Source: Escherichia phage vB_EcoM_112. Taken from it: DNA of 64,000 bases. This document shows positions 8,197 through 47,900 of the stretch, piece by piece; position 1 is the first letter of the stretch, and each line of letters begins with the position of its first letter. The notes under the pieces are model-generated. The model worked only from the letters and a program-made list of their open reading frames with translations, was not told where the DNA came from and searched no databases. Both the position numbers and the translations under genes were made by a program. The stretch lies in the sequence record NC_024125.2; one strand, 5' to 3'.

Positions 8197-8424
8197 TTAC
8201 CCCATATCTCTCATATGCATATCAATGCCCATATCTTTAGAATAAAAATATTCATCAAGATATCCGGCAAATTTTCCTTTAATATAAAGGACATCTTCAC
8301 CACACGGGTGGTCGGCCAGGATACGAATATCCTGACGCTTAAGATTATGCTTTTTCATTAAGAATTGAATTTCCGTTTCAAATTCTTCTTCATAATTAAA
8401 AGCATCATCAATGCTATATCTCAT
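8197..8424 (-). CDS. Hypothetical protein (T4 uvsY.-1 position)
   Basis: 75-aa ORF translationally coupled to uvsY (overlapping stop/start). Confidence 0.6.
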   Translation of the reverse strand: MRYSIDDAFNYEEEFETEIQFLMKKHNLKRQDIRILADHPCGEDVLYIKGKFAGYLDEYFYSKDMGIDMHMRDMG

Positions 8425-29638: not shown

Positions 29639-30135
29639 AAAGTTTTAATAACCTCTATAATATCGTCTTGAGAAAGACCGTTAATTAAAATATGATGTTC
29701 AGCTGGAGATTTAGAAATTTTAAAGCATGCCTCAACATCTTCTGCCATATCCGATGCACTACGATTTGGATTACTAATCCCAAGGCGGTGTTTTCCCGTC
29801 AAAGGATTAACAATAATGTAGCATTTACAACTATTGATATGAACATTAGGCTGAGTCTGATTAATGAACACTTCACAATCATACTTAGCGAGTTGATTTT
29901 CTAAAAAGACTTTCATCTCTTCAACCGCATCAGGAAGCATATCACGGGCTTGCTCAAGACGACGATTTCGATATTCTTTAATGGTCGTTTTCCGCTTGAC
30001 TTGCTTAGCTAAATCTTTCTTAAGATCAGTGATATATCCAACTCGACGATTTCCTTTGAATACCGAAATCCCATCTGTAGTATCACCGTATGCTTCAACG
30101 ACCATTTCAGTAGTAATAAGCTGCAAATCCATCAT
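29629..30135 (-). CDS. alc: Alc, host transcription (unmodified-cytosine DNA) inhibitor
   Basis: 168-codon ORF (T4 Alc ~167 aa); early promoter cassette and SD GAGGA upstream. Confidence 0.78.
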   Translation of the reverse strand: MMDLQLITTEMVVEAYGDTTDGISVFKGNRRVGYITDLKKDLAKQVKRKTTIKEYRNRRLEQARDMLPDAVEEMKVFLENQLAKYDCEVFINQTQPNVHINSCKCYIIVNPLTGKHRLGISNPNRSASDMAEDVEACFKISKSPAEHHILINGLSQDDIIEVIKTLCM

Positions 30136-30139
30136 AAAG

Positions 30140-30193
30140 TCCTCATGTTATGTCAGTAAGACTACTATAACACAACACGAGGGACTTGTAAAC
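30140..30193. repeat. 54-bp perfect direct repeat, copy B
   Basis: Identical to 16547-16600. Confidence 0.9.
30164..30193 (-). promoter_or_regulatory. Early promoter upstream of alc, copy 2 of 54-bp repeat
   Basis: Identical to 16547-16600 over 54 bp. Confidence 0.6.
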
Positions 30194-30196
30194 AGC

Positions 30197-31784
<1,588 letters not shown>

Positions 31785-31811
31785 AATAAAATGGGCCTTA
31801 CGGCCCACTCC

Positions 31812-32314
31812 TTAAAAATATTTTTTAAAACTCATCATAACTTTATCATCAACATCATTATCAATCTGTGCAACAAGGTAAGATGACAGTTCTACTTCTT
31901 GTGGCGCGGATTGAACATTATCAGAATTAAGATATTCACGAATCCAAGGATACGGATGTTTAACCGGAGCATCGGTAATTGGGCATGGAAGACCACACTG
32001 TTTCATACGAGATACAGTTAAGTAATCAATAAAGCTCCACATGCTATTTGTATTTAATCCAGGAACATCGCCATCTTTAAATAAATGAACTGCCCAATCT
32101 TTTTCTTGGCGGTTAACTTCCATGAAAATATCAACTGCTTCTTGTTCACACTCTTGAGCAATTTTAACCCATTCATCGCCATCAGTGCCAAGTTGAAGTT
32201 GACGAATAATATATTGAGTGCCTTTAAGGTGAAGCTGCTCATCACGTGCAATGAACTTCATAATCTTGGCATTACCTTCCATGATTTCCATGTTCTTATG
32301 GAAGTTGAAAGTAC
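31812..32314 (-). CDS. nrdB: Ribonucleotide reductase beta subunit, exon 2
   Basis: MEIMEGNAKIMKFIARDEQLHLKGTQY aligns to E. coli NrdB [20 protein letters not shown]; exon start inferred at 32314 so that junction reads YVSFA-C-TFNF. Confidence 0.85.
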
Positions 32315-33405
32315 CGTTATGTTCGATTGAGCTCGCTAATTCTCAACCCGTTCTCTTATGAACTGCTACATATTACTATGCAGACCAGACTATATCACAA
32401 TCCCAGAGGGATTCTCCCCATTTCGAGTCGCTTGACCCTACGTCCGAAGACTAGTCGTTGAACCTTGCTTTGCAATTGTCGCCGTGCCATCGTTTATATG
32501 TTGATGGTGATAAATCTTTCTTATCACAATATGGACAATTCAATTGAATTCTATTTGGATTTAATTTACATCTGTCATTATGTTTTAGATAAAATCCAGG
32601 ACCTTTACCAATGTGACCGCAGAAATCACATGTGATTTCTTTTTGTGCAGGATGGGTCCCGTTCTTAACCATTTCTAATGTTTTTGCTGATGTTCTTTTC
32701 TTATGGTCTTCTGACAAGAAATGATGTGAACCGTCATTTACCCGTTTTGATTGAGTTTCTGACTGCATTTTACCACCGCAAAATACATGAGTACCTTCTT
32801 TTATAGCTGCAATATTGCGTTCTTTAACTTTTGCAATATGCTCAGCTTGTTGAAAATTATGTATACCTAATGCAACTCTATTTAAATTAGATTTACGCTG
32901 TATTTCACCATCTAAAAGATGAAATGTACCATTTTCTATCTTAGATTTAATAGAGGCAATATTTTTAGCTCGTACTTCAGGGATATTAAAAATCTGGATT
33001 TCTCTAGATTTTGCGGCTTTAGAAGCTAATTCAGAAATTTCTTCAGGAGAATATTTCATTCTAAGCTTTATAGCATGACAAGCCTGGTAATCTTTTTGAG
33101 CTAAATGTATATCATAATGTTCCTGTATAGAAAGGCACATCAAATTATCTAAATCATTATTTTCACGGTTACCGTCTTTATGATGGATTTCGTATGTTCT
33201 TCCATCAGAATCTTTAGGTATAGGTCCGTTAGCATCTATCCAAATTTTTCTATAGTTCAATTGTGCATCCTCTTAAAAGTATAATCATATTTATATTATA
33301 CTAATTAAAGGTGCAAGCAAAACCTTGGCTGCTAGTTTTCCTATAAAGGACTTTCCAGCAATTAAAGGAGTTTTCGATAAACGTTACCGTTTAAAGGCGC
33401 ATTTT
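32315..33405 (-). ncRNA. Group I self-splicing intron in nrdB (1091 nt) carrying I-TevIII ORF
   Basis: Interrupts conserved NrdB sequence; exon 1 ends in U, intron ends in G; joining restores conserved FYVSFAC; internal HNH ORF. Confidence 0.8.
32451..33260 (-). CDS. I-TevIII: HNH homing endonuclease, full length (I-TevIII-like)
   Basis: 269 aa; HNH motif EIHHKDGNRENNDLDNLMCLSIQEH; C-terminal Cys-rich zinc-finger-like region (CDFCGH...CPYCDKK). Confidence 0.82.
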   Translation of the reverse strand: MNYRKIWIDANGPIPKDSDGRTYEIHHKDGNRENNDLDNLMCLSIQEHYDIHLAQKDYQACHAIKLRMKYSPEEISELASKAAKSREIQIFNIPEVRAKNIASIKSKIENGTFHLLDGEIQRKSNLNRVALGIHNFQQAEHIAKVKERNIAAIKEGTHVFCGGKMQSETQSKRVNDGSHHFLSEDHKKRTSAKTLEMVKNGTHPAQKEITCDFCGHIGKGPGFYLKHNDRCKLNPNRIQLNCPYCDKKDLSPSTYKRWHGDNCKARFND

Positions 33406-34081
33406 ACGCAAAAGATACATAAAAACGAATAGCTTCTAAGGCATTAATAACGTGCAAACAGAGGTAAAGAGATTTCATTAAAGCACGTTTAGCTTCGGCT
33501 TCTTGCTTAATAGCTCGGTTTAAACGAAAGTCGGCATCAGGAGATTCTTTAGCTAGTTCTACAAATTCTTTAGCATTTTCCCATTCACGGGTTTTAACCA
33601 AGACATCATCATAATAGCGACCAATAGATTCAGCACGTTTCATGATAGCTTCATCTAATACAATCTCATCAAATACCTTTGACGGATCAGTATAAAGATT
33701 TCGCATGATATGTGTATATGAACGGCTGTGAATAGTTTCACTAAAAGTCCACGTAGCAATCCATGTATCAAGGCTTGGGTCTGAAATTAATGACATAAGT
33801 ACAGCAGATGGCGCACGACCCTGAATGCTATCCAAAAGTGATTGATACTTCAGATTATTAGTAAAAATATTTTGCTGATACTGAGGAAGCTTATTAAACT
33901 GTGCAGCATCCATCATCAAGTTTACTTCTTCAGGACGCCAGAAAAATGACAACTGCTTTTCGGTCAAATCTTCAAAAACTTTATGACGTTGAATATCATA
34001 ACGCGCAATACCAAGACCTGAACCAAAAAACATGGGTTCTTTTAAAACATCAACTGGATTTGTATTAAAAACTGTGCTCAT
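33406..34081 (-). CDS. nrdB: Ribonucleotide reductase beta subunit, exon 1
   Basis: 225 codons ending ...EAIRFYVSFA, matching class Ia R2 up to the conserved FYVSFA segment. Confidence 0.85.
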
Positions 34082-34132
34082 AAATTTTCCGCTTAGTTAA
34101 TAGTTGGTGACTCGTCCGTGAGTCAAATTATA

Positions 34133-35122
34133 TCATAATTTACAGGATGAACAATCTTCAGCTTTTGGAGTTTCTATTTCATAATCATCAGTACCAGAAC
34201 CATCACGGGTATTATGATAATAGAAATTTTTTCCGCCAAAATACCAGAAATACAAAAGGTCATCAATCATTATTGACATTGGAACCTTTCCTTTAGGGAA
34301 GATTTGGGGGTCATAGTATGTATTCGCTGAAGCTGATTGACATACCCATTTCAGCATAATAGCTACCTGCGTAAGATAAGGTTTATTACCTTTCTTAGCT
34401 AATTTCCATGTATAATCATAGAGGTCTATGTTATGCTCAATATTGGGCACGACTTGATTAAAGGAGCCCTCTTTTGATTCTTTAACAGAGACTGGTCCAC
34501 GTGGAGGCTCGATACCGTTTGTACTGTTAGAAACTTGGGAAGATGACTCACATGGCATAAGTGCTGATAATGTGCTATTACGGATGCCAAAGAGCTTAAG
34601 GTCTTCCCGCAGCGACGACCAGTCACAAACGTATTTTGGAGCTGCGATTTGGTCAATCTTTTTATTGTACCAGTCGATAGGTAGTTCGCCTCGAGACCAA
34701 CGAGTGTCTGAATAATATTCGCAAGGTCCTTTTTCTTTGGCGAGCTTAATGGATGCTTTAATGAGTCCATACTGTAATCTCTCAAATAGTTCATGTGTTA
34801 AATCGTTAGCATCTTCATAAGAAGCAAAGTTACTTGCCAGCCAAGCTGCATAGTTAGTAACACCTACACCAAGGTTTCGACGCTTTTTAGCTTTTTCTGC
34901 TTCAGGAACTGGATATCCTTGGTAATCCAAAAGATTATCAAGAGCACGAACTTGAACTTCTGCCAATTCATTAATTTTATCTTGGTCTTGCCAGTCAAAA
35001 TTATCTAGTACGAATGCAGAGAGAGTACAAAGCCCCACTTCTCCCTTGTTTTCAATAACTTTTATTGTAGTATACTCATCATCTTCGTAAAATTCATCTA
35101 CAAATTCATAATCAATATTCAT
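34133..35122 (-). CDS. nrdA: Ribonucleotide reductase alpha subunit, C-terminal piece (NrdA-b-like)
   Basis: 329 aa; from ...IENKGEVGLCTLSAF aligns to E. coli NrdA DENGEIALCTLSAF onward, including C-terminal CxxC (DCSSCKL); has its own ATG and a 22-aa non-homologous N-terminal extension. Confidence 0.85.
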   Translation of the reverse strand: MNIDYEFVDEFYEDDEYTTIKVIENKGEVGLCTLSAFVLDNFDWQDQDKINELAEVQVRALDNLLDYQGYPVPEAEKAKKRRNLGVGVTNYAAWLASNFASYEDANDLTHELFERLQYGLIKASIKLAKEKGPCEYYSDTRWSRGELPIDWYNKKIDQIAAPKYVCDWSSLREDLKLFGIRNSTLSALMPCESSSQVSNSTNGIEPPRGPVSVKESKEGSFNQVVPNIEHNIDLYDYTWKLAKKGNKPYLTQVAIMLKWVCQSASANTYYDPQIFPKGKVPMSIMIDDLLYFWYFGGKNFYYHNTRDGSGTDDYEIETPKAEDCSSCKL

Positions 35123-35960
35123 TTAATTCTTTTACCTTTTTTCTAGTAATTCCTAAAGCTTTAGATGCTCGATGTATTGATTGATATTCTATACCGTTTA
35201 TTTTTACAGCAATTAAGTTATGGGGTTTTAATCCCTTTGGATGAGGTTTACTGACGAAAACTAAATTATCAAGTTCTGAAATCTTATCCAATTTCTTACA
35301 CTTAAATCCTTTGTGATGCGACCGTTTACCTTTACAAACGGCTGACATTGCAGATGGATTTAAATTATGCTCTTTACAAAATTCGTTAAGACCTCGATGA
35401 ATTTCCTCATGACCATCCGGAAATGTAAACACCCAAGATGTTTGAAGTCGAGATTTAACTTCTGGAGACATAGGAATACCTTTGTTCCAAGCTGGTTTGC
35501 CTTTATTATTTTCAGATACAGAAATAGCCAATTTTCTTCTAAGCCACCCATGGCGTTTATTGGTGTTCTTTCGTTCAATATTATCTTCAGAATAAACACA
35601 CATCATATTAGCGGCAAATATCAATTTATGATTATTTGGATATATCTTTACTAATAATTGATGAGCTATGTAATGCTCTTCTGGTGTCAAATCTACCAGG
35701 TTTTCCTTTGTATCAGAACCACCAATACACAGAGGTATAATATGGTGTGATTCGGTATAGCAATCTAATTTTCTATTCTTAGCTTTAGAAATAAGGTTAT
35801 TGTAAATTTTAAAATAATCCATAACTTTTCCTCTTGTTATGGATTATTTATTAACGGTCTGTGTACTTTATTTGCTTTGAATTATACCGCCAGGATTAGC
35901 TTCATAAAACTTAGCTACATCCGACTTCTTAATTTTGATTAAACGGGTTTGTTGGCTATT
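35057..35960 (-). mobile_element. ~0.9 kb insertion carrying the HNH endonuclease gene that interrupts nrdA
   Basis: Boundaries defined by loss of NrdA homology: after ...CCEIAIPTNDV (35961) and before IENKGEVGLC (35056). Confidence 0.75.
35112..35822 (-). CDS. Free-standing HNH homing endonuclease inserted in nrdA (MobE-like)
   Basis: 236 aa; HNH motif ESHHIIPLCIGGSDTKENLVDLTPEEHYIAH; NUMOD-like GKPAWNKGIPMSPEVKSRL; C-terminal helix-turn-helix-like segment; own SD AGAGGAAAAG. Confidence 0.85.
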   Translation of the reverse strand: MDYFKIYNNLISKAKNRKLDCYTESHHIIPLCIGGSDTKENLVDLTPEEHYIAHQLLVKIYPNNHKLIFAANMMCVYSEDNIERKNTNKRHGWLRRKLAISVSENNKGKPAWNKGIPMSPEVKSRLQTSWVFTFPDGHEEIHRGLNEFCKEHNLNPSAMSAVCKGKRSHHKGFKCKKLDKISELDNLVFVSKPHPKGLKPHNLIAVKINGIEYQSIHRASKALGITRKKVKELNEY

Positions 35961-37301
35961 CACATCATTTGTTGGAATAGCAATTTCACAGCACAAGTTA
36001 CTCTGACGAATAGGTGCCTTTTCACGAATAAATGGAGTATAGTTATTCGTATTATCAATGAACTGCACATAAATCCTTGCTGTTCCTGAACGTTCAGTCA
36101 TGAGCAATTCAAATAGTTCACGGGCTTTAATACGCTTTTTACGAATATTAGGGTCTTTTTCTGCTGCTTCGTATAATTCACGGAAACGGTCTTGGTCTTT
36201 AAAATAAGAATAATAAAGCTCGCCACCCATTTCATGCGGACTGAACAAAGTAATGTAATCGTTCTTTCCGAATCGTTCCATCATCAAATCATTCAGTTGA
36301 ACACCATAATCCATATGACGAATGCGGTTTTCTTCTACGCCTTTGTTATTTTTCAAAACGAGAAGATTTTCAACTTCCAAATGCCAAATAGGATAATAAG
36401 CAGTAGCAGCGCCGCCACGAATTCCACCCTGTGAACATGATTTAACAGCAGTCTGAAAATGTTTCCAAAAAGGAATAACACCAGTATGGCGTACTTCACC
36501 CATGCCAATCTTAGAACCTTCAGCACGAATCATACCAACGTTAATACCAATTCCAGCGCGTTTAGAGATATATTCAACAATTGAAGCGGAAGCCTTATTG
36601 ATAGACTTCAATGAATCTCCTGCCTCAATAACAACACATGAACTAAACTGTCGAGTCGGAGTACGGCAACCAGCCATAATAGGAGTTGGCAATGAAATCT
36701 GTCGAGTAGATACTGCTTCATAAAAACGAATAACATGTTTTAATCTATCAACAGGTTCATCTTGATGCAATGCCATTCCAATAGTCATAAATGCAAACTG
36801 TGGAGTTTCATAAATTTGACCAGTGGTTTTATCTTTAACTAGATATTTTTCTTTTAATTGCATCGCCCCGGAATAAGTAAATTCCATATCCCGTTCGTGC
36901 TTAATTTTTGATTCTAAAAATGTAATTTCTTCTGCTGAATATTTTGACAATAATTCAGGGTCATATTTACCTTCATTTACACAGTAAGAAATATGGTCAA
37001 TAAATGAACGTGGTTCATACTGCCCATAAACATGCTTACGAAGAGCAAACATTAAACAGCGTGCAGCTACATATTGATAATCAGGTTCTTCAACCGAAAT
37101 AGAATTCGCAGCAGCCTTAATGACAATAGTCTGAATGTCATCAGTTGTCATTCCATCACGGAGATATGATTTAATATTTTCATATAATTCATAAGGATCT
37201 ACTGATGTTCCCTCAGCTGCCCAAGATAAAACTTTAATAATTTTTTGTGGGTCAAAGCTCTGAGAAACACCACTACTTTTGATAACATTAATTAATTGCA
37301 T
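35868..37301 (-). CDS. nrdA: Ribonucleotide reductase alpha subunit, N-terminal piece (NrdA-a-like)
   Basis: 477 aa; class Ia R1 homology through active-site region PIRQSNLCCEIAIPTNDV, then 30 non-homologous residues and a stop. Confidence 0.85.
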   Translation of the reverse strand: MQLINVIKSSGVSQSFDPQKIIKVLSWAAEGTSVDPYELYENIKSYLRDGMTTDDIQTIVIKAAANSISVEEPDYQYVAARCLMFALRKHVYGQYEPRSFIDHISYCVNEGKYDPELLSKYSAEEITFLESKIKHERDMEFTYSGAMQLKEKYLVKDKTTGQIYETPQFAFMTIGMALHQDEPVDRLKHVIRFYEAVSTRQISLPTPIMAGCRTPTRQFSSCVVIEAGDSLKSINKASASIVEYISKRAGIGINVGMIRAEGSKIGMGEVRHTGVIPFWKHFQTAVKSCSQGGIRGGAATAYYPIWHLEVENLLVLKNNKGVEENRIRHMDYGVQLNDLMMERFGKNDYITLFSPHEMGGELYYSYFKDQDRFRELYEAAEKDPNIRKKRIKARELFELLMTERSGTARIYVQFIDNTNNYTPFIREKAPIRQSNLCCEIAIPTNDVNSQQTRLIKIKKSDVAKFYEANPGGIIQSK

Positions 37302-37618
37302 AAGTCCTCAACTTGAAAATCGTCTTTAAACAATCGGTTAACTATATGAGCTATTATATCACCATGACACGGCTTTGGTTTACATGTGCATCCTAGCCTC
37401 ATTCCACGTAAAGGCTCTAAATGTGCTTTAGTTATTTCTCCGGATTTAATTCGACGTATAAAATCTTTTTTGAATAATTCAATGGCAGCCTCTCGGCTGC
37501 CAGCATCTTTACCGACGTAATTTCCCCAAAATGTACCACGGTGAATATTAACATCAAAGTCGGATTTATATTTATTCACTACCCGGCATAAACGGTCCGC
37601 GCGGTGATAATTCGGCAT
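37292..37618 (-). CDS. Hypothetical protein (nrdA.1 position)
   Basis: 108-aa ORF between td and nrdA. Confidence 0.6.
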
Positions 37619-37835
37619 ATTGTTTTTCCGTTAAAACAGTAATATCGTAGTAACAGTCAGAAGAAGTTTTAACTGTGGAAATTTTATTATCAAAATACTC
37701 ACGAGTCATTTTATGAGTATAATATTTTTTGCCATAAATGATAATAGGCTGATTTGGTCCTGGAACTTCTAACTCGCTTGGGTTAGGAAGTGTAAAAAGA
37801 ACTACACCAGAAGTGTCTTTAAATCGTAAAATCAT
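37572..37835 (-). CDS. Hypothetical protein (nrdA.2 position)
   Basis: 87-aa ORF; 5' part overlaps neighbour so the true start may be internal. Confidence 0.5.
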
Positions 37836-38143
37836 ATTGCCATTTTCCCTTTAATTGCTGGATGCGATTCATAATTTTCAAGGATAAAATCTTTCGGTTT
37901 CATGTATTCAGTTAACCAGTAAAGCTGTGTTTCGGTGTCACAATTTCCAAACTCTATAGGCCAATCAATTTTAAGTTCACACAGTTCTTTAGGCTCACGA
38001 CGTAAAATTTCTTTACATTGCTCAGTATGATTCATATAGATGTGAGTATTACCACCAGAAAATATCAAATCTCCTGGGATAAGATTACACATCTTAGCCA
38101 CAATATGTGTCAAGGCAGCGTACGAGGCAATGTTAAACGGTAG
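37832..38143 (-). CDS. td: Thymidylate synthase, exon 2
   Basis: [36 protein letters not shown] matches ThyA C-terminal half; exon start CTACCGTTTAAC follows intron 3' end ...CATAATG. Confidence 0.9.
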
Positions 38144-38585
38144 CATTATGTTCAGATAAGGTCGTTAATCTTACCCCGGAATTATATCCAGCTGCATGTC
38201 ACCATGCAGATCAGACTATATCTCCATCTTGATAAAGCAAGATGTCTATCGTTTCGAGTCACTTGACTCTACTCCCTAAAGGGATAGTCGTTAGGCATTT
38301 ATGTAGAACCAATTCCAGTTATCAGATTTTACACGATAAGTAACTAATCCAGACGAAATTTTAAAATGCCTCTTCCATCTCTTTTCAAAATCTTTAGCAC
38401 TTCCTACATATACTTTATTGTTTAAAGTATTTTTAATCTGATAAATTCCGCTTTTCATAAATACCTCTTTAAATATAGAAGTATTATTAAAGGGCAGTCC
38501 TACAATTTAGCACGGGATTGTCTACTAGAGAGGTTCCCCGTTTAGATAGATTACAAGTATAAGTCACCTTATACTCAGGCCTCAA
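38144..38585 (-). ncRNA. td group I intron, shortened (442 nt) by deletion within the I-TevI ORF
   Basis: 5' end TAATTGAGGCCTGAGTATAAGGTGACTTATACTTGTAATCTATCTAAACGGGGAACC and 3' end ...GGGGTAAGATTAACGACCTTATCTGAACATAATG match the T4 td intron as I recall it. Confidence 0.85.
38291..38458 (-). pseudogene. I-TevI: I-TevI remnant: in-frame fusion of N-terminal 34 and C-terminal 21 codons (55 aa)
   Basis: Hand-translated MKSGIYQIKNTLNNKVYVGSAKDFEKRWKRHFKISSGLVTYRVKSDNWNWFYINA; keeps GIY-YIG start and C-terminal tail but lacks catalytic and DNA-binding domains. Confidence 0.75.
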
Positions 38586-39960
<1,375 letters not shown>

Positions 39961-39970
39961 ATTATTTTCC

Positions 39971-40213
39971 TTAAACAGACTTTTTCACAATTTTCCAATC
40001 AGCTTTAAACTGATTAACATCAGAATGATAAATCCAGAATCCTGCGCTTTCTCCGTCTTCATAAAGAGGACACCCATCGCATTCATCTTCCCATCCCATA
40101 TCACGTAAAAGATGTTCAGCTTTTTCAACGAGCTCAGAATCTTTACCGATGATATTAAAATACCATTTACCTCTAACTTCTGAATCTTTGATGCTTTGGC
40201 GTTGTAATCTCAT
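39971..40213 (-). CDS. Hypothetical protein (frd.2 position; start moved to MRLQRQ)
   Basis: SD GAGGAG upstream of ATG at 40213; the longer track ORF would begin inside the early promoter at 40225-40256. Confidence 0.55.
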   Translation of the reverse strand: MRLQRQSIKDSEVRGKWYFNIIGKDSELVEKAEHLLRDMGWEDECDGCPLYEDGESAGFWIYHSDVNQFKADWKIVKKSV

Positions 40214-40224
40214 TTTATTCTCCT

Positions 40225-40256
40225 CATGTAGTTGATAGGGTAATAGTATCACACTA
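40225..40256 (-). promoter_or_regulatory. Early promoter GTTTAC...TACTAT with CTATCAACTAC leader
   Basis: Upstream of the frd.2 re-called start. Confidence 0.5.
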
Positions 40257-40271
40257 CTACCCTACTGTAAA

Positions 40272-40658
40272 CTACTTTTTGAAAGTTTTTCGCAAAAGTT
40301 CAATGATTTCATCTACATTGTTTTCGTCTACAATGCAGTGAATTTTTGTTACACCAGAAACTATACCTTCATTAGCGGATTGAGGCTTTTCTAAAGTTAC
40401 CTCAGTAAAGTATTTGAATTCTTCAGAGTAAATCTCAAAATACGTCTCAAGTGGGCCACCCGCCATGTATTCAGTGCCATCTTCCATAGTTACACGTACC
40501 ACACATTCACCAGCACAATCATCACTTTCCATTTCATCTACAACAAAACTAGGTCCGTGCTTCTCTATTAAATTTAGCATCATTACATTGCAACGGCACT
40601 CGTTAGCAAAGTCATTTTTAAATAAAGGGTTAATGATATAAGTTTTTCCAACTTCCAT
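40272..40658 (-). CDS. Hypothetical protein (frd.3 position)
   Basis: 128-aa ORF. Confidence 0.6.
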   Translation of the reverse strand: MEVGKTYIINPLFKNDFANECRCNVMMLNLIEKHGPSFVVDEMESDDCAGECVVRVTMEDGTEYMAGGPLETYFEIYSEEFKYFTEVTLEKPQSANEGIVSGVTKIHCIVDENNVDEIIELLRKTFKK

Positions 40659-40704
40659 TTTGATTTCCTCATTTTAACGGGGCTATCAAATAGCCCCTTG
40701 ATAA

Positions 40705-40932
40705 TTATTGTTCAATCAGTCCCATGTAAAATTCTGCGTCTTCAGAACCCATGTCATCACAATATTCATTAGCCATAAAGAGGGTGAGGTCTTCAAGAGG
40801 ACCTTTAATAACGATTTGAATACTCCAAAACTTAGAATCTTGCACGCTTGTGATACTAAGTTCAGGATAACGATTACGAATAATTTCTTCGATATATTCA
40901 AAATCAACGATGTCAATATCAACTTTAGCCAT
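40705..40932 (-). CDS. Hypothetical 75-aa acidic protein (start MAKVDIDIV)
   Basis: SD AAGAGGAAA upstream; early promoter cassette at 40976-41005. Confidence 0.55.
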
Positions 40933-40975
40933 ATTATTTTCCTCTTTAATCATCAGCAGTATTGCCGATAGTTGT

Positions 40976-41005
40976 ATAGTACCATGGAAGGACAAGGATG
41001 TAAAC
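40976..41005 (-). promoter_or_regulatory. Early promoter cassette (GTTTAC-18-TACTATAC) with A/T-rich UP element
   Basis: Shares ~75 bp with 58261-58336. Confidence 0.6.
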
Positions 41006-41036
41006 AGTTTTGTGAAAAAATTTTTGAAATAAAAAA

Positions 41037-41055
41037 GGGGACCTCTAGGGTCCCC
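41037..41055 (-). terminator. Hairpin terminator downstream of gene 32
   Basis: GGGGACCTCTAGGGTCCCC. Confidence 0.65.
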
Positions 41056-41077
41056 AATTAATTAGTAATATAATCTA

Positions 41078-41983
41078 TTAAAGGTCATTCAAAAGGTCAT
41101 CCAGGTCCGTGTCATCAGCACTAGATGAACTGCCAGAGCTTGAGCTCATAAAATCATCTTCAGTTTTTGTATTGAAGTCATCAACATTGAATGCATCCAA
41201 ATCATCAGCAACTTTATCAGCTTTCTTAGCAGCAGTTGCAGCGGCACCGCCCATCACAGCAGTTCCCATGACTTGACCGAATTTAGTATTCAGTTCTTCA
41301 AATGATTTGAATTTATCTTTAGAAGTCATTTCAGAAAGGTCAACCATTTGTTCGAACAGTTCTTTCTGGAAAGATTCATCGTCAATGTTTGGAATCGCAG
41401 ATTGATTCAGGAATTTAGATTCATCGTAGTTACTAAATCCAGAAACCTGTTTAACTTTCAGTACAAAGTTAGCACCTTCCCACGGACAAGTTACATCAAC
41501 TGGAGTTTCACCCATTTCAACATCAACTGCAATCATTGCATTGATTTTATCCCAGATTTTCTTACCGAAACGGTATTTAAATACTTTACCTTCATTTTCT
41601 GGAGCAGCTGGGTCTTTTACAACAAGAATGTTAGCCCAGTAAGAAGTTTTACGTTTAACAAGACCATACTCTTTATTGTCAGTGTTGTACAGATCATTTT
41701 TACTGATGTATTGACATACTGGGCAAGAATCGTAATCACCATGGGTAGATGAACATGTTTCAATATACCATTTACCATTTTTCTTGAAACCGTGATTTAC
41801 AAGAATTGCGAATGGTGCTTGTTCATCATTTTTAGACGGAAGAAAACGAATTACTGCTTGACCGTTACCCGCATTATCGAGTTTCAGTTTCCACTCGCCT
41901 TTATCTTCAGAAGAAAAACCTTTATTGCCATTCAGTTTAGCCATTTGTGCAGCAAGTTCAGCAGTAGATTTACGTTTAAACAT
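41078..41983 (-). CDS. 32: Single-stranded DNA-binding protein gp32
   Basis: 301 aa; matches remembered T4 gp32 incl. acidic Ser-rich C-terminus. Confidence 0.93.
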
Positions 41984-42042
41984 TTTATTTCCTTTTTAAT
42001 TTAATTTAATTTAATTAACAGTTGGTGCTATGACACTTTACC

Positions 42043-42675
42043 TCATAGCTGGCATAATTCGCAATACTCTGGGTCTTCGAGAGGTATCCAACCTGAGTTG
42101 AAATACTTTACCATCGATTTAGCAGTTGTATCAGTTATATTTATATTACCTTTAACTCTTCGCCATCCAGGAGTTTTACCGTACAGATTAGAGGATAATA
42201 ATAACACATAATTCTCGTAAGCAATATGAGATAATTTCCAAGACTCTATATTAGCTCGTGATGTTTTCCAAGGTCTAAAATCGTCACGGTTCATATAATT
42301 AGCCAATCTCATATGCTCTCTAACTTCCGGGTCTTTGGCTGGATGAGTTTCACCACTCACACCAAATCCACCACCAGCATATACCAGATTAAAATAGTCT
42401 GGATTATCTCTGGCATTTACTTCAAGTTGGTATTTTCGTTCTGCTTCAATAACATCCAAGTCATCATCAATTTGAATTATTTTAACGCTCGGTTTTTGAA
42501 GCATTAGCGCATTCAAAAATCTTTTTTGTTTACATGAGCTCCAGTATTCCTTTCCGGAAGAGTCATATATTATTCCGTTCTCAAATGAGCAATTTAATTT
42601 ACTACCGATATAGTAGTATGGCGGAGTCTTATTTTTGACACGGTCTTCAAATGTAAACCAATATACTATATTCAT
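42043..42675 (-). CDS. segG: GIY-YIG-type putative site-specific endonuclease between genes 32 and 59 (SegG-like)
   Basis: 210 aa; N-terminal IVYWFTF...YYYIGSKLN resembles GIY-YIG motif; position corresponds to T4 segG (formerly 32.1). Confidence 0.65.
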   Translation of the reverse strand: MNIVYWFTFEDRVKNKTPPYYYIGSKLNCSFENGIIYDSSGKEYWSSCKQKRFLNALMLQKPSVKIIQIDDDLDVIEAERKYQLEVNARDNPDYFNLVYAGGGFGVSGETHPAKDPEVREHMRLANYMNRDDFRPWKTSRANIESWKLSHIAYENYVLLLSSNLYGKTPGWRRVKGNINITDTTAKSMVKYFNSGWIPLEDPEYCELCQL

Positions 42676-42676
42676 A

Positions 42677-43330
42677 TCAATACTTACAAGATTTCACAGT
42701 TTCAATGAAAACATTTTTAGCTTTCTGTGAATCAATATTTAAAATTTTTCTATAAGCCTTTAACTTTATAGAATAATTATTCCAGACTAAATTATCAGTC
42801 TGTTCATCATGTTTATCAATTATATTTAAAAACGAATCAAGCAAGATAAACGTCTCAAACGAAATTATATTCGATTGTAGAAGTTTAAAAATATAACTTG
42901 ACTGAACCTTTGGATTATATTCAAAGATTTCTTTAAAAGCAGAAACTTCAACTTTTTTACTAAAATAATAAATGTTGCGAATATCTTCTTCAAACTTAAA
43001 TTTAATTTGCTTTAAGCGTCCGATATATTCACGATAAAACACAAGTGCATCAGCGTCAGAGATGTCACCAATCCAAGCATCTTGGTTAGCAACCAAATTA
43101 CTTATAAAAATTAAAGCAAGTTCCTTTAATTTATATTTTTCTGATAACTTCTGGAAAAAATACTTATCCCTTCGCTTTTGATAAGCGGCATCAGACACCC
43201 GCATGCACCAATTATACTTAATTACATCATACTTTCCATTCATATGCTGTTTTATCATTAAGTATAATTTATAAACTGATTTACCATCAATGTATCTTTC
43301 ACCACCAGCAGGCATGCGGAGTTTAATCAT
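42677..43330 (-). CDS. 59: gp59 helicase loader
   Basis: 217 aa (T4 gp59 length); synteny. Confidence 0.9.
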   Translation of the reverse strand: MIKLRMPAGGERYIDGKSVYKLYLMIKQHMNGKYDVIKYNWCMRVSDAAYQKRRDKYFFQKLSEKYKLKELALIFISNLVANQDAWIGDISDADALVFYREYIGRLKQIKFKFEEDIRNIYYFSKKVEVSAFKEIFEYNPKVQSSYIFKLLQSNIISFETFILLDSFLNIIDKHDEQTDNLVWNNYSIKLKAYRKILNIDSQKAKNVFIETVKSCKY

Positions 43331-43665
43331 AGCAGAAAATCTAATGTATTAGTTTTTTCACAACGAACAACAGAAGGACGTAAAAGATTTTCGTCAATAG
43401 CTTCTGACTGAATTTTTTCAATTATACCCGAAGGAATAAATTTAGCAAATTGAGTTTCAGGAATAGAATTTTCTTCCAAGAATGCTGTCGTAGCTTCAAG
43501 ATAACTCATTCCAAACTCTTCTACCATTTTTTCAATAATAAATCCATTTTCTTGACGATCAAGAAGCTTTGCTATTTCATCCTTTTCTTTCTTAATTGAA
43601 AGTTCTTTTTCTGAAAGACCGGTCTCATCGACCGGACGAATATCATTTAGAGAAAACTGTGTCAT
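43327..43665 (-). CDS. 33: gp33 late transcription co-activator
   Basis: 112 aa from MTQFSLNDIRP; track ORF has 3 extra N-terminal codons. Confidence 0.85.
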   Translation of the reverse strand: MTQFSLNDIRPVDETGLSEKELSIKKEKDEIAKLLDRQENGFIIEKMVEEFGMSYLEATTAFLEENSIPETQFAKFIPSGIIEKIQSEAIDENLLRPSVVRCEKTNTLDFLL

Positions 43666-43912
43666 AAAGTTCAACTACCTCTTCAGTTTCAGCTTCAAAC
43701 ACATCACGGTTATCTTTATGATACAAAGCTAATAGACGATTAAACATCTTACCATCAACGCCAAGTTCATCTTTGGCACGAATTCGAATATCTTTAATCA
43801 GTTCATTATAACCGGAAATTTTCAGTTTATGATCAGATGCTTCTTTAATAAATTTAGCCAAGTCTTCGCCATGGATAGCTTCATCAAATTCAACCATTTC
43901 TTTTTTAGCCAT
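43643..43912 (-). CDS. dsbA: DsbA, dsDNA-binding late transcription enhancer
   Basis: 89 aa; synteny between rnh and gene 33. Confidence 0.82.
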   Translation of the reverse strand: MAKKEMVEFDEAIHGEDLAKFIKEASDHKLKISGYNELIKDIRIRAKDELGVDGKMFNRLLALYHKDNRDVFEAETEEVVELYDTVFSK

Positions 43913-43920
43913 TATTCACC

Positions 43921-44838
43921 TCAAAATTCATTAATGCTATTAGTTAATTTAGAAAGACCCGCTTTTACAAAATATGAATAAATTTTGCCACGCGGTGGTA
44001 ATTTATATGAATTATAGTAATTCACAATGTTTGAAGCAATATTATCAGGAATATAATCAAAATCAATTAGAACTAAATTTTCTTTATAACGATTATATTC
44101 AGATTCTGTGAGAAGCACCTTAGCTTGCTCACGGTCATTAGCAATAGCTTCAACGATTGAAGTTTTCATTGAAGGAGTTCGTTCACCTTCAACTTTGGTA
44201 AACCAAAAGTCAGATCGTACTTTAACTGAAGCAACGTTATCCTTTTTATCGCCTTTAAGGATTTTAGTCATACAGTCAATTTCAGCAGAACCGCTTTTAA
44301 TTTTAACCCATTTCTTGTGCATCGGTGACCATTGCTTAACATTTGGATATTTGTGAAGTTGAGTAAAGTCACCATCCGACGAAATGATTAAAATCTTATG
44401 TCCTTCTAAAGAGAACTTTTTAACAAGAACAGCAATGTGGTCATCCGCTTCATACTTATCAATATCCATAACAATGTATGGCATATAAGCTTTCAATTCA
44501 TCTATAACTTTATGGCTGGATTCAAAATAACCTTCCCAGTCCCAAGTAGATTCTTCTCGTGCTTTTCCACGGTTTTTCTTATAATAATACGCGAAATCAC
44601 GACGCCAGTATCCAGATTTCGCATTATCAATACACAGTACAATTTTAGTGTATCCAAGAGTTTTTGCTTTTTTGACATTAAACTTAATTGAGTTCAATAT
44701 CAAATGACGAACCATTGATAAATTAATTTTTTCTTTATCTGGGAAGTTTACCAAAGCAGTTGAAAGAGCAATTTGACTAAAGTCAATTAAGCAGATTCCT
44801 TCTTTGTAATCTTCATCCAGCATCATTTCTAAATCCAT
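43921..44838 (-). CDS. rnh: RNase H (5'-3' exonuclease, FEN family)
   Basis: 305 aa from MDLEMMLDEDYKEG; early promoter GTTTAC-18-TATAAT at 44868-44897. Confidence 0.9.
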   Translation of the reverse strand: MDLEMMLDEDYKEGICLIDFSQIALSTALVNFPDKEKINLSMVRHLILNSIKFNVKKAKTLGYTKIVLCIDNAKSGYWRRDFAYYYKKNRGKAREESTWDWEGYFESSHKVIDELKAYMPYIVMDIDKYEADDHIAVLVKKFSLEGHKILIISSDGDFTQLHKYPNVKQWSPMHKKWVKIKSGSAEIDCMTKILKGDKKDNVASVKVRSDFWFTKVEGERTPSMKTSIVEAIANDREQAKVLLTESEYNRYKENLVLIDFDYIPDNIASNIVNYYNSYKLPPRGKIYSYFVKAGLSKLTNSINEF

Positions 44839-44867
44839 ATGAACCTCGTTCAATTAGTGAGATTTCT

Positions 44868-44897
44868 ATTATATACCATCCAAATCTTAAAGTAAAC
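44868..44897 (-). promoter_or_regulatory. Early promoter GTTTAC-18-TATAAT for rnh
   Basis: Consensus -35 and -10; back-to-back with the gene 34 late promoter. Confidence 0.6.
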
Positions 44898-44900
44898 AAG

Positions 44901-44908
44901 TATAAATA
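44901..44908 (+). promoter_or_regulatory. Late promoter TATAAATA for gene 34
   Basis: Exact consensus ~35 nt upstream of ATG. Confidence 0.7.
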
Positions 44909-44942
44909 CTTATTATTGAAAACACAATAGGAGCCCGGGAGA

Positions 44943-47900
44943 ATGGCCGAGATTAAAAGAAAGTTCAGAGCAGAAGATGGTCTGGACGCAGGTGGTGATA
45001 AAATAATCAACGTAGCTTTAGCTGATCGTACCGTAGGAACTGACGGTGTTAACGTTGATTACTTAATTCAAGAAAACACAGTTCAACAATATGATCCAAC
45101 TCGTGGATATTTAAAAGATTTTGTAATCATTTATGATAACCGCTTTTGGGCTGCTATAAATGATATTCCAAAACCAGCAGGAGCTTTTAATAGCGTACGA
45201 TGGAGAGCGTTACGTACCGATGCAAACTGGACAACTGTTTCATCAGGACCTTATCAATTAAAGTCAGGTGAATCAATTTCAGTTAATACTGCAGCAGGAA
45301 ATGATATCACATTTACTTTACCATCTTCTCCAATTGATGGTGATACTATCGTTCTCCAAGATATTGGAGGAAAACCTGGAGTTAACCAAGTTTTAATTGT
45401 AGCTCCAGTGCAAAGTATTGTAAACTTTAGAGGTGAACAGGTACGTTCAGTACTAATGACTCATCCAAAGTCACAGCTAGTTTTAATTTTTAGTAATCGT
45501 CTGTGGCAAATGTACGTTGCTGATTATAGCAGAGAAGCTGTAGTTGTAACACCGGCAAGTCTCTATCAGGCGCAATCTAACGATTTTATCGTGCGTAGAT
45601 TTACTTCTGCTGCACCAATTAATGTTAAACTTCCAAGATTTGCTAATCATGGCGATATTATTAATTTCGTCGATTTAGATAAACTAAATCCGCTTTATCA
45701 TACAATTGTTACTACATACGATGAAACGACTTCAATACAAGAAGTTGGAACTCATTCCATTGAAGGCCGTACAACGATTGACGGTTTCTTGATGTTTGAT
45801 GATAATGAGAAATTGTGGAGATTGTTTGACGGGGATAGTAAAGCGCGTTTACGTATTATAACAACTAATTCTAATATTCGTCCAAATGAAGAAGTTATGG
45901 TATTTGGTGCGAATAACGGAACAGCTCAGACAATTGAGCTTAAGCTTCCGACTGATATTTCTGTTGGTGATACTGTTAAAATTTCCATGAATTACATGAG
46001 AAAAGGACAAACAGTTAAAATCAAAGCTGCCGGTGAAGATAAAATTGCTTCTTCAGTTCAATTGCTGCAATTCCCAAAACGCTCAGAATATCCGCCTGAA
46101 GCTGAATGGGTTACAGTCCAAGAATTAGTTTTTAATGGTGAAACTAATTATGTTCCGGTTTTACAACTTGCTTATATAGAAGATTCTGACGGAAAATACT
46201 GGGTAGTACAGCAAAACGTTCCAACTGTAGAAAGAGTAGATTCTTTAAATGATTCTACTAGAGCAAGATTAGGCGTAATTGCTTTAGCTACACAAGCTCA
46301 AGCAAATGCTGATTTAGAAAATTCTCCACAAAAAGAATTGGCAATTACTCCAGAAACGTTAGCTAATCGTACTGCTACAGAAACTCGTAGAGGTATCGCA
46401 AGAATAGCAACTACTGCTCAAGTTAACCAGGATACTACATTCTCTTTTGCAGATGACCTTATCATTACTCCTAAAAAGCTGAATGAAAGAACAGCTACTG
46501 AAACTCGCAGAGGTGTTGCTGAAATTGCTACGCAGCAAGAAACTAATGCAGGAACCGATGATACTACAATCATCACTCCTAAAAAGCTTCAAGCTCGCCA
46601 AGGTTCTGAATCATTATCTGGTATTGTAACTTTTGTATCTACTGCAGGAGCTACTCCAGCTTCTAGTCGTGAATTAAATGGTACGAATGTTTATGATAAA
46701 AACACTAATAATTTAGTTGTTTCACCTAAAGCTTTGGATCAGTATAAAGCTACTCCAACGCAACAAGGCGCAGTAATTTTAGCAGTTGAAAGTGAAGTAA
46801 TTGCTGGACAAAGCCAAGAAGGATGGGCAAATGCGGTTGTAACGCCAGAAACGTTACATAAAAAGACATCAACTGATGCAAGAATTGGTTTAATTGAAAT
46901 TGCTACGCAAAGTGAAGTTAACACAGGAACTGACTATACTCGTGCAGTCACTCCTAAAACTTTAAATGACCGTAGAGCAACTGAAAGTTTAAGTGGTATA
47001 GCTGAAATTGCTACGCAAGTTGAATTCGACACAGGCGTCGACGATACTCGTATCTCTACACCATTAAAAATTAAAACCAGATTTAATAGTACTGATCGTA
47101 CTTCTGTTGTTGCTCTATCTGGATTAGTTGAATCAGGAACTCTCTGGGACCATTATACCCTCAATATTCTTGAAGCAAATGAGACACAACGTGGTACACT
47201 TCGTGTAGCTACACAAGTTGAAGCTGCTGCAGGAACATTAGATAATGTTTTAATAACTCCTAAAAAGCTTTTAGGTACTAAATCTACTGAAGCGCAAGAA
47301 GGTGTTATTAAAGTTGCAACTCAGTCTGAAACTGTGACTGGAACATCAGCAAATACTGCTGTATCTCCAAAAAATTTAAAATGGATTGTGCAGAGTGAAC
47401 CTACTTGGGCAGCAACTACTCTGATAAGAGGTTTTGTTAAAACTTCATCTGGTTCAATTACGTTTGTTGGTAATGATACAGTCGGTTCTACCCAAGATTT
47501 AGAACTGTACGAGAAAAATAGTTATGCAGTATCACCATATGAATTAAATCGCGTATTAGCAAATTATTTGCCGTTAAAAGCAAAAGCGGTAGATAGTAAT
47601 TTATTAGATGGTCTAGATTCACTCCAGTTCATTCGTAGGGATATTGCGCAGACAGTTAATGGATCATTAACCTTAACCCAACAAACGAATCTGAGTGCCC
47701 CTCTTGTATCATCTAGTACTGCTACGTTTGGTGGTTCAGTTTCGGCAAATAGTGTACTAACTATTTCTAATACTGGAACAGAAACTCATCTGATTTTTGA
47801 GAAAGGACCTCAAACTGGAACTAACCAAGCGCAGACGGTGACTATTAGAGTGTGGGGTAATCAATTTAGTGGGGAATCAGACACAACACGTTCTACTGTA

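What the first reader, a model, noticed from the sequence alone, without database searches (positions are those of the whole stretch)
38144..38585. td intron retained but its I-TevI ORF is reduced to a 55-codon in-frame remnant
Both ends of the intervening sequence match the T4 td group I intron as I recall it, and the exon junction restores a ThyA sequence. The intron is only 442 nt, however, against about 1 kb in T4. The internal ORF reads MKSGIYQIKNTLNNKVYVGSAKDFEKRWKRHFK fused directly to ISSGLVTYRVKSDNWNWFYINA, i.e. the I-TevI N-terminus joined in frame to its extreme C-terminus. If, as I recall, I-TevI contains RHFK near both ends (RHFKDLEK... and ...ARHFKISSGL), the junction falls exactly on that short direct repeat, suggesting deletion by recombination between the two copies. 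The remnant lacks the catalytic and DNA-binding domains, so the intron should splice but no longer home.
Basis: partly seen in the sequence, partly recalled or inferred. Interest (0 to 1): 0.6.

Follow-up and report, generated by a model that had tools for sequence, protein, structure and literature searches.

The report
td intron with deleted homing endonuclease
This T4-like phage keeps the classic self-splicing intron in its thymidylate synthase gene, but a 570-bp deletion between two 9-bp repeats has gutted the intron's homing endonuclease gene; it is an ordinary, already-sequenced example of selfish-gene decay.

Summary
The td gene lies on the minus strand and carries a 445-nt group I intron at 38144..38588. 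Compared with T4 and U5, exactly 570 bp (I-TevI codons 34-223) are missing. The junction lies in a single copy of CATTTTAAA, which is present twice, 570 bp apart, in every full-length allele examined and is the longest direct repeat inside the ORF. The ribozyme core is intact, including the last 20 ORF nucleotides that form P6a/P7. Joining the exons in silico gives a full 286-aa thymidylate synthase. The 55-aa remnant keeps only residues 1-33 of the catalytic domain and the last 22 of the DNA-binding domain. So the intron should splice but not home.

It is not new sequence. The window matches phage vB_EcoM_112 protein for protein, and that record annotates the remnant as 'endonuclease I-Tevi'. 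The same junction occurs in phages F1/FN, G28 and FL18, and 55-aa remnants are on record on roughly 60 contigs. Decay of homing endonuclease genes in T-even introns is established (T4 I-TevIII).

Modest extras: the deleted allele sits in several different td backgrounds, and a 1-nt deletion in the orphaned I-TevI late promoter is found only on deleted alleles.

The parts
38589..39137 (-). td (thymidylate synthase) exon 1, 549 nt, ending ...TTCTTGGGT
   Evidence: The exact 183-aa product matches AHY83438.1 of phage vB_EcoM_112.
38144..38588 (-). Group I (T4 td-type) intron, 445 nt, starting TAATTGAGGCC and ending CATAATG
   Evidence: Alignment to T4 and U5. Rfam RF00028 covers model positions 1-253 at 40 bits, E=1e-8, below the gathering score of 50. 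An unconstrained minimum-free-energy fold recovers P2, P3, P4, P5, P6/P6a, P7.1, P7.2, P8, P9 and P9.1.
37832..38143 (-). td exon 2, 312 nt including the stop codon, starting CTACCGTTTAAC
   Evidence: Exon 1 plus exon 2 gives 286 aa, matching Pfam Thymidylat_synt 1-266/266 at E=2e-96, and is 85% identical to T4 Td.
38291..38458 (-). 55-codon remnant of the I-TevI gene: codons 1-33 fused in frame to codons 224-245
   Evidence: Pfam GIY-YIG and I-TevI_DNA-bd match only as fragments. PDB 1MK0/1LN0 match residues 1-33, and 1I3J/1T2T match its last 26 residues to remnant residues 30-55, overlapping the RHFK junction.
38360..38368 (-). Deletion junction: the single surviving copy of the 9-bp repeat CATTTTAAA
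   Evidence: Full-length alleles have two copies 570 bp apart, with 11 of 12 bases matching when the flanks are included. It is the only 9-mer direct repeat within the ORF.
38291..38310 (-). Last 20 nt of the ORF, which also form part of the ribozyme's P6a/P6/P7
   Evidence: Identical to T4. The role of these 20 nt in T4 is stated in PMC3073962. The helix UGUAGGACU/GGUUCUACA appears in the fold.
38483..38491 (-). Orphaned I-TevI late promoter/operator: AATAAATA reduced to AATAATA by loss of one A
   Evidence: The octamer is annotated as a promoter in phage Lutter. In the phage collection the 1-nt deletion occurs only in Δ570 records, 3 of 166. The overlap of promoter and operator is described in PMC2988022.
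38457..38487 (-). Hairpin that sequesters the remnant ORF's ribosome-binding site and start codon
   Evidence: The fold gives -14.6 kcal/mol here against -16.6 in U5 and G8. Its regulatory role in T4 is described in PMC2988022.
38225..38244 (-). P8 hairpin carrying a compensatory A-U to U-A change (38242/38227) relative to T4
   Evidence: The change is shared only with phage U5 among 223 records.
38319..38328 (.). 3' arm of a 10-bp inverted repeat whose partner is 38435..38444; the pair is 12 bp and perfect in T4 and brackets nearly the whole ORF
   Evidence: It forms a helix in the fold. Significance is uncertain: my rough estimate, not a tool result, is about a 6% chance of such a repeat arising by chance.

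Best explanation
This is the T4-type self-splicing group I intron of the thymidylate synthase gene, in a state where its homing endonuclease gene has decayed.

How it arose (inferred). A 570-bp deletion, formed by replication slippage or short-homology recombination between two in-frame copies of CATTTTAAA, removed I-TevI codons 34-223. The deleted stretch lies wholly in the dispensable P6a loop.

What it does now (inferred).
- The ribozyme is untouched, so the pre-mRNA should still splice and yield a full 286-aa enzyme.
- The 55-aa leftover has no complete catalytic, linker, zinc-finger or DNA-binding module. It therefore cannot cut intronless td alleles, and the intron can no longer home.
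- The intron persists because only a precise excision would be tolerated, and because it interrupts the I-TevI target site, which protects the allele from I-TevI made by co-infecting phages.
- With the endonuclease/autorepressor gone, its late promoter and operator are also decaying (a 1-nt deletion).

History (inferred). The deleted allele most likely arose once or a few times. It has since been shuffled into different td backgrounds by ordinary recombination centred on the highly conserved intron.

Shown here: the anatomy, the endpoints, the repeat, the intact core, the in-silico exon junction and the distribution. Inferred: splicing, loss of homing, and the history.
For: - Clean 570-bp gap with the junction inside the repeat.
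- The repeat is present twice in all six full-length alleles examined and is the longest direct repeat inside the ORF.
- The only longer repeat pair in the region (12 nt, 588 bp apart) has one copy in P2 of the ribozyme. A deletion there would remove core sequence, and none is seen.
- The core is intact. Rfam group I matches across the whole model, and native helices are recovered in an unconstrained fold.
- All differences from T4 in the 3' core are structure-neutral or compensatory, by my reading of the sequence and of the helices: P8 A-U to U-A, P7.2 G.U to A-U, and loop changes.
- The last 20 ORF nucleotides needed for P6a/P7 are retained.
- The joined exons give a complete thymidylate synthase.
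- The remnant covers only residues 1-33 of the 97-aa catalytic domain and the last 22 of the DNA-binding domain.
- A laboratory td intron deleted for I-TevI (tdΔ1-3) is inherited 33-fold less often than the wild type, 1% against 33% (PMC1865063).
- td variants with shortened P6a regions are used as active ribozymes (PMC2729099).
- The same junction occurs in F1/FN, G28, FL18 and 6 metagenome contigs.
- Five 55-aa sequence variants are on record on about 60 contigs.
Against: - No RNA or activity data exist, so splicing and loss of homing are inferred.
- The Rfam score of 40 bits is below the family's gathering score of 50. This is plausibly due to the 196-nt insert in P6 and to the intron's subgroup.
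- The remnant is still an intact ORF with a ribosome-binding site, so a residual role for the peptide is not formally excluded.
- The history is unresolved. The window's 3' intron half is identical only to U5, which has a full ORF. Its 5' half shares a private 1-nt deletion with other deleted alleles. Either recombination within about 40-120 nt intervals or parallel mutation is required.
Confidence: 0.9

Rival explanations
1. The 570-bp deletion arose independently in this (U5-like) lineage. On this reading the 9-bp repeat is a recurrent deletion hot spot, rather than one deleted allele being spread by recombination.
For: - The window's exon 1, 3' intron half and exon 2 are U5-like: 15 of 549, 2 of 226 and 4 of 315 differences. 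The other deleted isolates differ from the window by 66-80 positions in exon 1.
- The U5-type 3' half occurs in only 1 of 223 phage records.
- The repeat is the longest in the ORF.
- Deletions between short direct repeats are a known T4 mutation class (my knowledge: Singer and Westlye 1988).
Against: The 1-nt deletion 117 nt upstream of the junction is shared with FL18, G28 and most of the metagenome contigs, and is absent from about 160 full-length records. Independent origin would therefore need a second parallel event. Alleles from different phages are nearly identical across the intron while the flanking exons diverge, which is the kind of place where crossovers are expected to concentrate.
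Confidence: 0.3
2. The short intron is the ancestral ORF-less form, and full-length I-TevI arose by insertion into it.
For: ORF-less group I introns exist in phages (general knowledge).
Against: The remnant consists of in-frame fragments of two different structural domains of I-TevI, identical to T4 I-TevI apart from one K-to-N change. The junction is one copy of a repeat that is duplicated in the full-length gene. The orphaned promoter, ribosome-binding-site hairpin and start codon are still present. An insertion would have to rebuild a complete enzyme around those fragments.
Confidence: 0.02
3. The deletion is a sequencing or assembly artefact of this genome.
For: The likely source genome was sequenced on the 454 platform (PMC4241651), which is prone to homopolymer errors. 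This could in principle affect the 1-nt A deletion.
Against: A 9-bp repeat cannot collapse an assembly. The identical junction and the same 1-nt deletion occur in independently sequenced isolates (G28, FL18; F1/FN for the junction) and in ENA and Logan metagenome contigs.
Confidence: 0.01
4. The 55-aa peptide has been retained because it does something, for example by acting as a small regulator or by interfering with I-TevI from co-infecting phages.
For: The ORF is intact in all variants on record, and its ribosome-binding site and hairpin are preserved.
Against: - The in-frame fusion follows automatically from two in-frame repeats 570 bp (190 codons) apart.
- The protein cluster lists mainly 55-aa forms, so the apparent intactness is an ascertainment effect.
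- Changes among the variants are mostly non-synonymous (S20N, T11I, K33T, V-to-I, K-to-N, against one synonymous change), as expected under relaxed constraint.
- Neither fragment is a foldable domain.
- The late promoter is damaged.
Confidence: 0.04

Closest known systems
Phage T4 td group I intron with I-TevI (also the U5, RB3, LZ2, T6 and TuIa alleles, GenBank AY262149-AY262157)
   Same: The insertion site in td is the same. The ribozyme matches the sampled full-length alleles at all but 1-3 of 221 positions (5' part) and 2-9 of 226 (3' part). The ORF start, ribosome-binding-site hairpin and ORF 3' end within P6a/P7 are the same. The 3' half is 100% identical to U5 over the 116 nt queried.
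   Different: Codons 34-223 of I-TevI are missing (570 bp). One A is lost from the late promoter/operator. The intron is 445 nt against 1,016-1,017 nt.
The same deleted allele in deposited genomes: vB_EcoM_112 (AHY83437.1), vB_EcoM_F1/FN, vB_EcoM-G28 and FL18
   Same: The junction is identical and the ORF is 55 codons. vB_EcoM_112 matches all six window proteins looked up exactly, so it is almost certainly the source of the window.
   Different: F1, G28 and FL18 have the common-type 3' intron half and different td exons. F1 has A651C instead of the 1-nt deletion. None of the annotations or the genome announcement (PMC4241651) notes the truncation; they label the ORF 'homing endonuclease', 'endonuclease I-Tevi' or 'hypothetical protein'.
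T4 nrdB intron with truncated I-TevIII (full-length version in phage RB3)
   Same: This is also a natural deletion that removes the catalytic part of an intron-encoded endonuclease in a T-even phage, leaving a splicing but non-mobile intron (PMC1865063; T4 annotation).
   Different: The endonuclease belongs to the HNH family. The deletion takes the N-terminal half and is not an internal in-frame loss. In this window the situation is reversed: the nrdB intron ORF is full length (269 aa) and the td intron ORF is the defective one.
Laboratory td ORF deletions (tdΔ1-3; shortened P6a constructs; Galloway Salvo, Coetzee and Belfort 1990)
   Same: The loop that holds the ORF is removed while the ribozyme is kept. 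The deleted intron is inherited about 33-fold less often than the wild type.
   Different: Those constructs are engineered, with different endpoints. This allele is natural and bounded by a 9-bp repeat.
Goddard-Burt cycle of homing endonuclease invasion, degeneration and loss; Sandegren and Sjöberg 2004 on T-even introns (cited from memory, paper not held)
   Same: This is the degeneration stage, in which a fixed intron no longer needs its endonuclease and the gene decays.
   Different: Nothing in kind. This is one more documented instance, with a well-defined mechanism.

Membership tests
Group I self-splicing intron (T4 td type) | Conserved catalytic core (P3-P8) recognised by a covariance model | tested here: inconclusive
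   RF00028 matches the full model 1-253 at E=1e-8, but at 40 bits it is below the gathering score of 50. The 196-nt insert in P6 is a plausible reason.
Group I self-splicing intron (T4 td type) | Sequence homology to the experimentally characterised T4 td ribozyme across all core helices | tested here: met
   Outside the deleted stretch the intron differs from T4 at 10 positions, all neutral or compensatory by my reading of the sequence. Native helices appear in the unconstrained fold.
Group I self-splicing intron (T4 td type) | Splice sites: U at the end of exon 1 (the G.U pair in P1) and a terminal G in the intron; exon ligation restores the host reading frame | tested here: met
   The junctions read ...TTGGGT|TAATTGAGG and ...CATAATG|CTACCG. 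The joined exons give a 286-aa protein matching Thymidylat_synt 1-266/266.
Group I self-splicing intron (T4 td type) | GTP-dependent self-splicing activity | not testable with these tools
   Needs in vitro transcription with GTP labelling, or RT-PCR from infected cells.
I-TevI / GIY-YIG homing endonuclease | Complete GIY-YIG catalytic domain (about 90 aa, including the distal catalytic residues such as E75) | tested here: not met
   Only residues 1-33 are present.
I-TevI / GIY-YIG homing endonuclease | Linker with zinc finger, and complete C-terminal DNA-binding domain | tested here: not met
   The remnant has no I-TevI_ZnF or NUMOD3 match. Only profile positions 29-51 of 51 of I-TevI_DNA-bd are present. 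T4 I-TevI matches all four families.
I-TevI / GIY-YIG homing endonuclease | Descent from the I-TevI gene (homology) | tested here: met
   Both fragments are identical to T4 I-TevI apart from one K-to-N change, which is shared with U5.
Mobile (homing) intron | Endonuclease-dependent super-Mendelian inheritance in crosses | not testable with these tools
   Predicted to be lost. The laboratory ORF deletion tdΔ1-3 falls from 33% to 1%.

The most novel reading that the evidence does not exclude
The deleted intron may not be a dead end. One possibility is that the 9-bp repeat is a recurrent deletion hot spot. Another is that the endonuclease-less intron still spreads among divergent td backgrounds, either through intron-centred recombination or by using I-TevI supplied in trans by co-infecting phages. 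In addition, loss of the autorepressor may be followed by selected, rather than merely neutral, inactivation of the orphaned late promoter. The basis for that last idea is that the 1-nt promoter deletion is found only on deleted alleles.
Probability: 0.25. Interest if true: 0.4.

Novelty: new member of a known kind. Interest (0 to 1): 0.25.

Why it matters
The td intron with I-TevI is the model system for intron homing. A natural allele with exact, repeat-bounded endpoints gives a clean example of the degeneration stage of the homing endonuclease life cycle in phages. It also shows that current annotations label a 55-aa fragment as a 'homing endonuclease', which inflates counts of such genes. 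If the deleted allele proves to be recurrent, or to spread without its own enzyme, it would give a tractable system for measuring how fast orphaned endonuclease genes and their regulatory elements decay. As it stands, the concept is established and the sequence has been public since 2014.

Tried and rejected
- An Rfam scan of 30000..46000 at gathering threshold found nothing. Only the permissive scan of the intron alone gave the group I match.
- Exact junction searches found nothing in IMG/VR, JGI metagenome contigs or GTDB genomes. These zeros say little, because IMG/VR holds only 2 contigs with the td intron at all.
- The Sandegren and Sjöberg 2004 JBC paper is not in the library, so what I say about it is from memory.
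- NC_024125 (my guess, from memory, at the RefSeq accession of vB_EcoM_112) is not in the phage collection. Provenance therefore rests on exact protein matches.
- TuIa looked as if it had a shorter intron (a 1,517-nt record). It is a partial cds with a full 1,016-nt intron.
- The idea that both promoter-region mutations reduce expression did not hold. The window's 1-nt deletion weakens the ribosome-binding-site hairpin, while F1's A651C strengthens it, so there is no single consistent story.
- The sigma-70 and terminator scan showed nothing above chance. The one 'terminator' on the plus strand is simply the P8 hairpin.
- The ancestral ORF-less and artefact readings were rejected (see the rival explanations).

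Full report
**What is there.** The region lies in the frd-td-nrdA cluster of a T4-like phage, on the minus strand. frd is at 39134..39715. td exon 1 is 38589..39137, an intervening sequence is 38144..38588, and td exon 2 is 37832..38143. These are followed by homologues of nrdA.2 and nrdA.1, and then nrdA. A global alignment of the window's td (1,306 nt) with T4 td (1,878 nt) shows near-identity at both ends of the intervening sequence and one clean 570-nt gap, plus two 1-nt differences. The 5' splice site follows ...TTGGGT, as in the GenBank joins for the U5 and TuIa td genes. Joining the exons in silico gives a 286-aa protein. It matches the Pfam thymidylate synthase model end to end (E=2e-96) and is 85% identical to T4 Td.

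**The deletion.** The missing stretch is T4 td positions 772-1341, which are I-TevI codons 34-223. T4 I-TevI has RHFK at residues 30-33 and 220-223. At the DNA level these are two copies of CATTTTAAA, 570 bp apart (11 of 12 bases match when the flanks are included). Both copies are present in all six full-length alleles I aligned. The window keeps one copy, at 38360..38368. The upstream flank comes from the first copy (AGG) and the downstream flank from the second (ATTTCG).

This 9-mer is the only direct repeat of that length inside the ORF. The only longer repeat pair in the region is 12 nt with 588-bp spacing, and it has one copy in P2 of the ribozyme. A deletion between those copies would destroy the ribozyme core, and none is seen. 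The in-frame fusion follows automatically from the spacing of 190 codons and is not evidence of selection. This pattern is what slippage or short-homology recombination would produce.

**What is left of the endonuclease.** The 55-aa ORF at 38291..38458(-) matches residues 1-33 of the 97-aa catalytic domain structures (1MK0, 1LN0). It also matches the last residues of the 116-aa DNA-binding domain structure (1I3J/1T2T). In Pfam it hits only fragments of GIY-YIG and I-TevI_DNA-bd. T4 I-TevI additionally hits the zinc-finger and NUMOD3 models. No complete module survives, so endonuclease activity is not expected.

**What is left of the ribozyme.** A permissive Rfam scan aligns the intron to the whole group I model (positions 1-253, 40 bits, E=1e-8), with a 196-nt insert in the P6 loop. 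The score is below the gathering threshold of 50, and the default scan found nothing. An unconstrained fold recovers P2, P3, P4, P5, P6/P6a, P7.1, P7.2, P8, P9 and P9.1, as well as the hairpin over the ORF's ribosome-binding site. The last 20 nt of the ORF are reported to form part of P6a/P6/P7 in T4 (PMC3073962). They are retained unchanged.

By my reading of the sequence, the substitutions relative to T4 in the 3' core are all structure-neutral or compensatory:
- an A-U to U-A swap in P8 (38242/38227);
- a G.U to A-U change in P7.2;
- loop changes in L7.1 and L8.

Laboratory td introns with shortened P6a regions are used as active ribozymes (PMC2729099). A td intron deleted for I-TevI (tdΔ1-3) serves as the negative control for homing, at 1% against 33% inheritance (PMC1865063). 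I infer that this intron splices and does not home. Neither point is shown here.

**Provenance and prior record.** Six window proteins match proteins of Escherichia phage vB_EcoM_112 exactly. They are the I-TevI remnant, td exon 1, Frd, the NrdA N-terminal part, the HNH ORF inside nrdA and, by adjacency of accession numbers, their neighbours (AHY83432, 33, 37, 38, 39). That record (KJ668714) is not in the phage collection I could search. It annotates the remnant as 'endonuclease I-Tevi'. The genome announcement counts nine endonucleases and does not mention the truncation (PMC4241651).

**Distribution.** About 200 phage records in the collection carry the td intron. The identical junction is present in vB_EcoM_F1/FN, vB_EcoM-G28 and FL18, which together account for six records. 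The exact 55-aa protein of the window is encoded on seven metagenome contigs, including one labelled pig gut and two from one metagenome series. The 90% protein cluster holds five 55-aa sequence variants, on about 60 contigs in all. The allele is therefore a circulating natural variant, not an artefact and not unique.

**History.** The deleted isolates sit in different td backgrounds. The window's exon 1 differs from those of F1, G28 and FL18 at 66-80 of 549 positions, but from U5 at only 15. G28 has a T4-like exon 2, whereas the others do not. The window's 3' intron half carries six substitutions that are otherwise found only in U5, which has a full ORF (1 of 223 records). Its 5' half carries a 1-nt deletion in the run AATAAATA. 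That deletion is shared with G28, FL18 and most of the metagenome contigs, and is absent from about 160 full-length records. F1 has the 570-bp deletion without that 1-nt deletion and carries A651C instead.

All four combinations of '570-bp deletion or not' with 'U5-type or common 3' half' exist. At least one recombination event within a short interval, or one parallel mutation, is therefore required. I lean towards one or a few origins followed by recombination, at roughly 60:40. Two points favour this. Alleles from different phages are nearly identical across the intron while the flanking exons diverge. And the private 1-nt deletion argues for common descent. Mosaic metagenome contigs could be assembly chimeras, so I give weight mainly to the isolates.

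**The orphaned control region.** The octamer AATAAATA is annotated as a promoter in phage Lutter. It lies where the I-TevI late promoter and its overlapping operator are described in the literature (PMC2988022). The window's 1-nt deletion breaks this octamer and slightly weakens the hairpin over the ribosome-binding site (-14.6 against -16.6 kcal/mol). F1's A651C strengthens the hairpin instead (-22.3 kcal/mol).

All four private mutations I found on deleted alleles fall in the promoter or the ORF remnant, and none falls in the ribozyme core. This fits relaxed constraint on the endonuclease cassette together with continued constraint on splicing. The numbers are too small to claim positive selection.

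**Comparison with what is known.** This is the degeneration stage of the homing endonuclease life cycle. The closest precedent in the same phage group is T4's own nrdB intron, whose I-TevIII lost its catalytic half while RB3 keeps the full 269-aa enzyme (PMC1865063). From memory, Sandegren and Sjöberg (2004) reported that several T-even intron endonuclease genes carry inactivating deletions; I could not retrieve that paper. I found no paper that describes this particular 570-bp deletion.

**Verdict.** The feature is a well-defined but ordinary, already-deposited example of a known process. I score its interest as low to moderate.

Noticed in passing
window 34133..37301 (-): nrdA is split into a 477-aa N-terminal ORF (35868..37301) and a 329-aa C-terminal ORF (34133..35122). 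Between them sits a 236-aa HNH-type endonuclease ORF (35112..35822; Pfam I-HmuI_NUMOD-like). The same arrangement is present in about 33 phage records, where it is annotated as a homing endonuclease between two nrdA pieces. No group I intron was detected there by Rfam at gathering threshold.
   Followed up: partly
window 31812..34081 (-): The nrdB gene is interrupted. The intervening sequence holds a 269-aa HNH ORF (32451..33260; Pfam HNH_3), the length of the active RB3 I-TevIII. A consensus late promoter, TATAAATA, lies at 33288..33295. This is the reverse of T4, where I-TevI is intact and I-TevIII is truncated.
   Followed up: partly
L004 7721-7732 / 8409-8420 (T4); window 38319..38328 / 38435..38444: A perfect 12-nt inverted repeat, ATTTATCAGATT/AATCTGATAAAT, brackets almost the whole I-TevI ORF in T4 and is the longest inverted repeat in the region. 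Ten of its base pairs survive in the window and form a helix in the predicted fold. It could clamp the ends of the ORF loop, or it could be chance; my rough estimate, not a tool result, puts chance at about 6%.
   Followed up: partly
window 37832..37990 (-), C-terminal ~45 codons of td: The C-terminal end of Td is a divergent mosaic segment, with 86-91 differences from T4 and G28 across the 315 aligned exon 2 positions and at least three distinct types among the phages compared. Here td overlaps the next gene by ATGA, whereas G28 and HY03 show a gap of about 20 nt.
   Followed up: no
L003 1688-2035, L007 1609-1956, L009 1608-1955 (phages G8, Lutter, Pu-Krd-SF4): These relatives carry an extra 348-nt ORF ('hypothetical protein') between frd and td. 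It is absent from the window, T4, F1, FL18 and G28, where frd and td overlap.
   Followed up: no
GenBank MZ375356.1 and OL964745.1 (records labelled Escherichia phage T4): In these two records the two halves of the junction query lie 8-10 nt closer together than in other full-length alleles. This suggests small indels inside I-TevI in some T4 stocks.
   Followed up: no
protein cluster of T4 I-TevI (cluster 1): The 90% cluster that contains I-TevI also lists I-CreI PDB chains and 'Enterococcus faecalis' partial proteins. These are probably clustering or contamination oddities in the collection, not biology.
   Followed up: no
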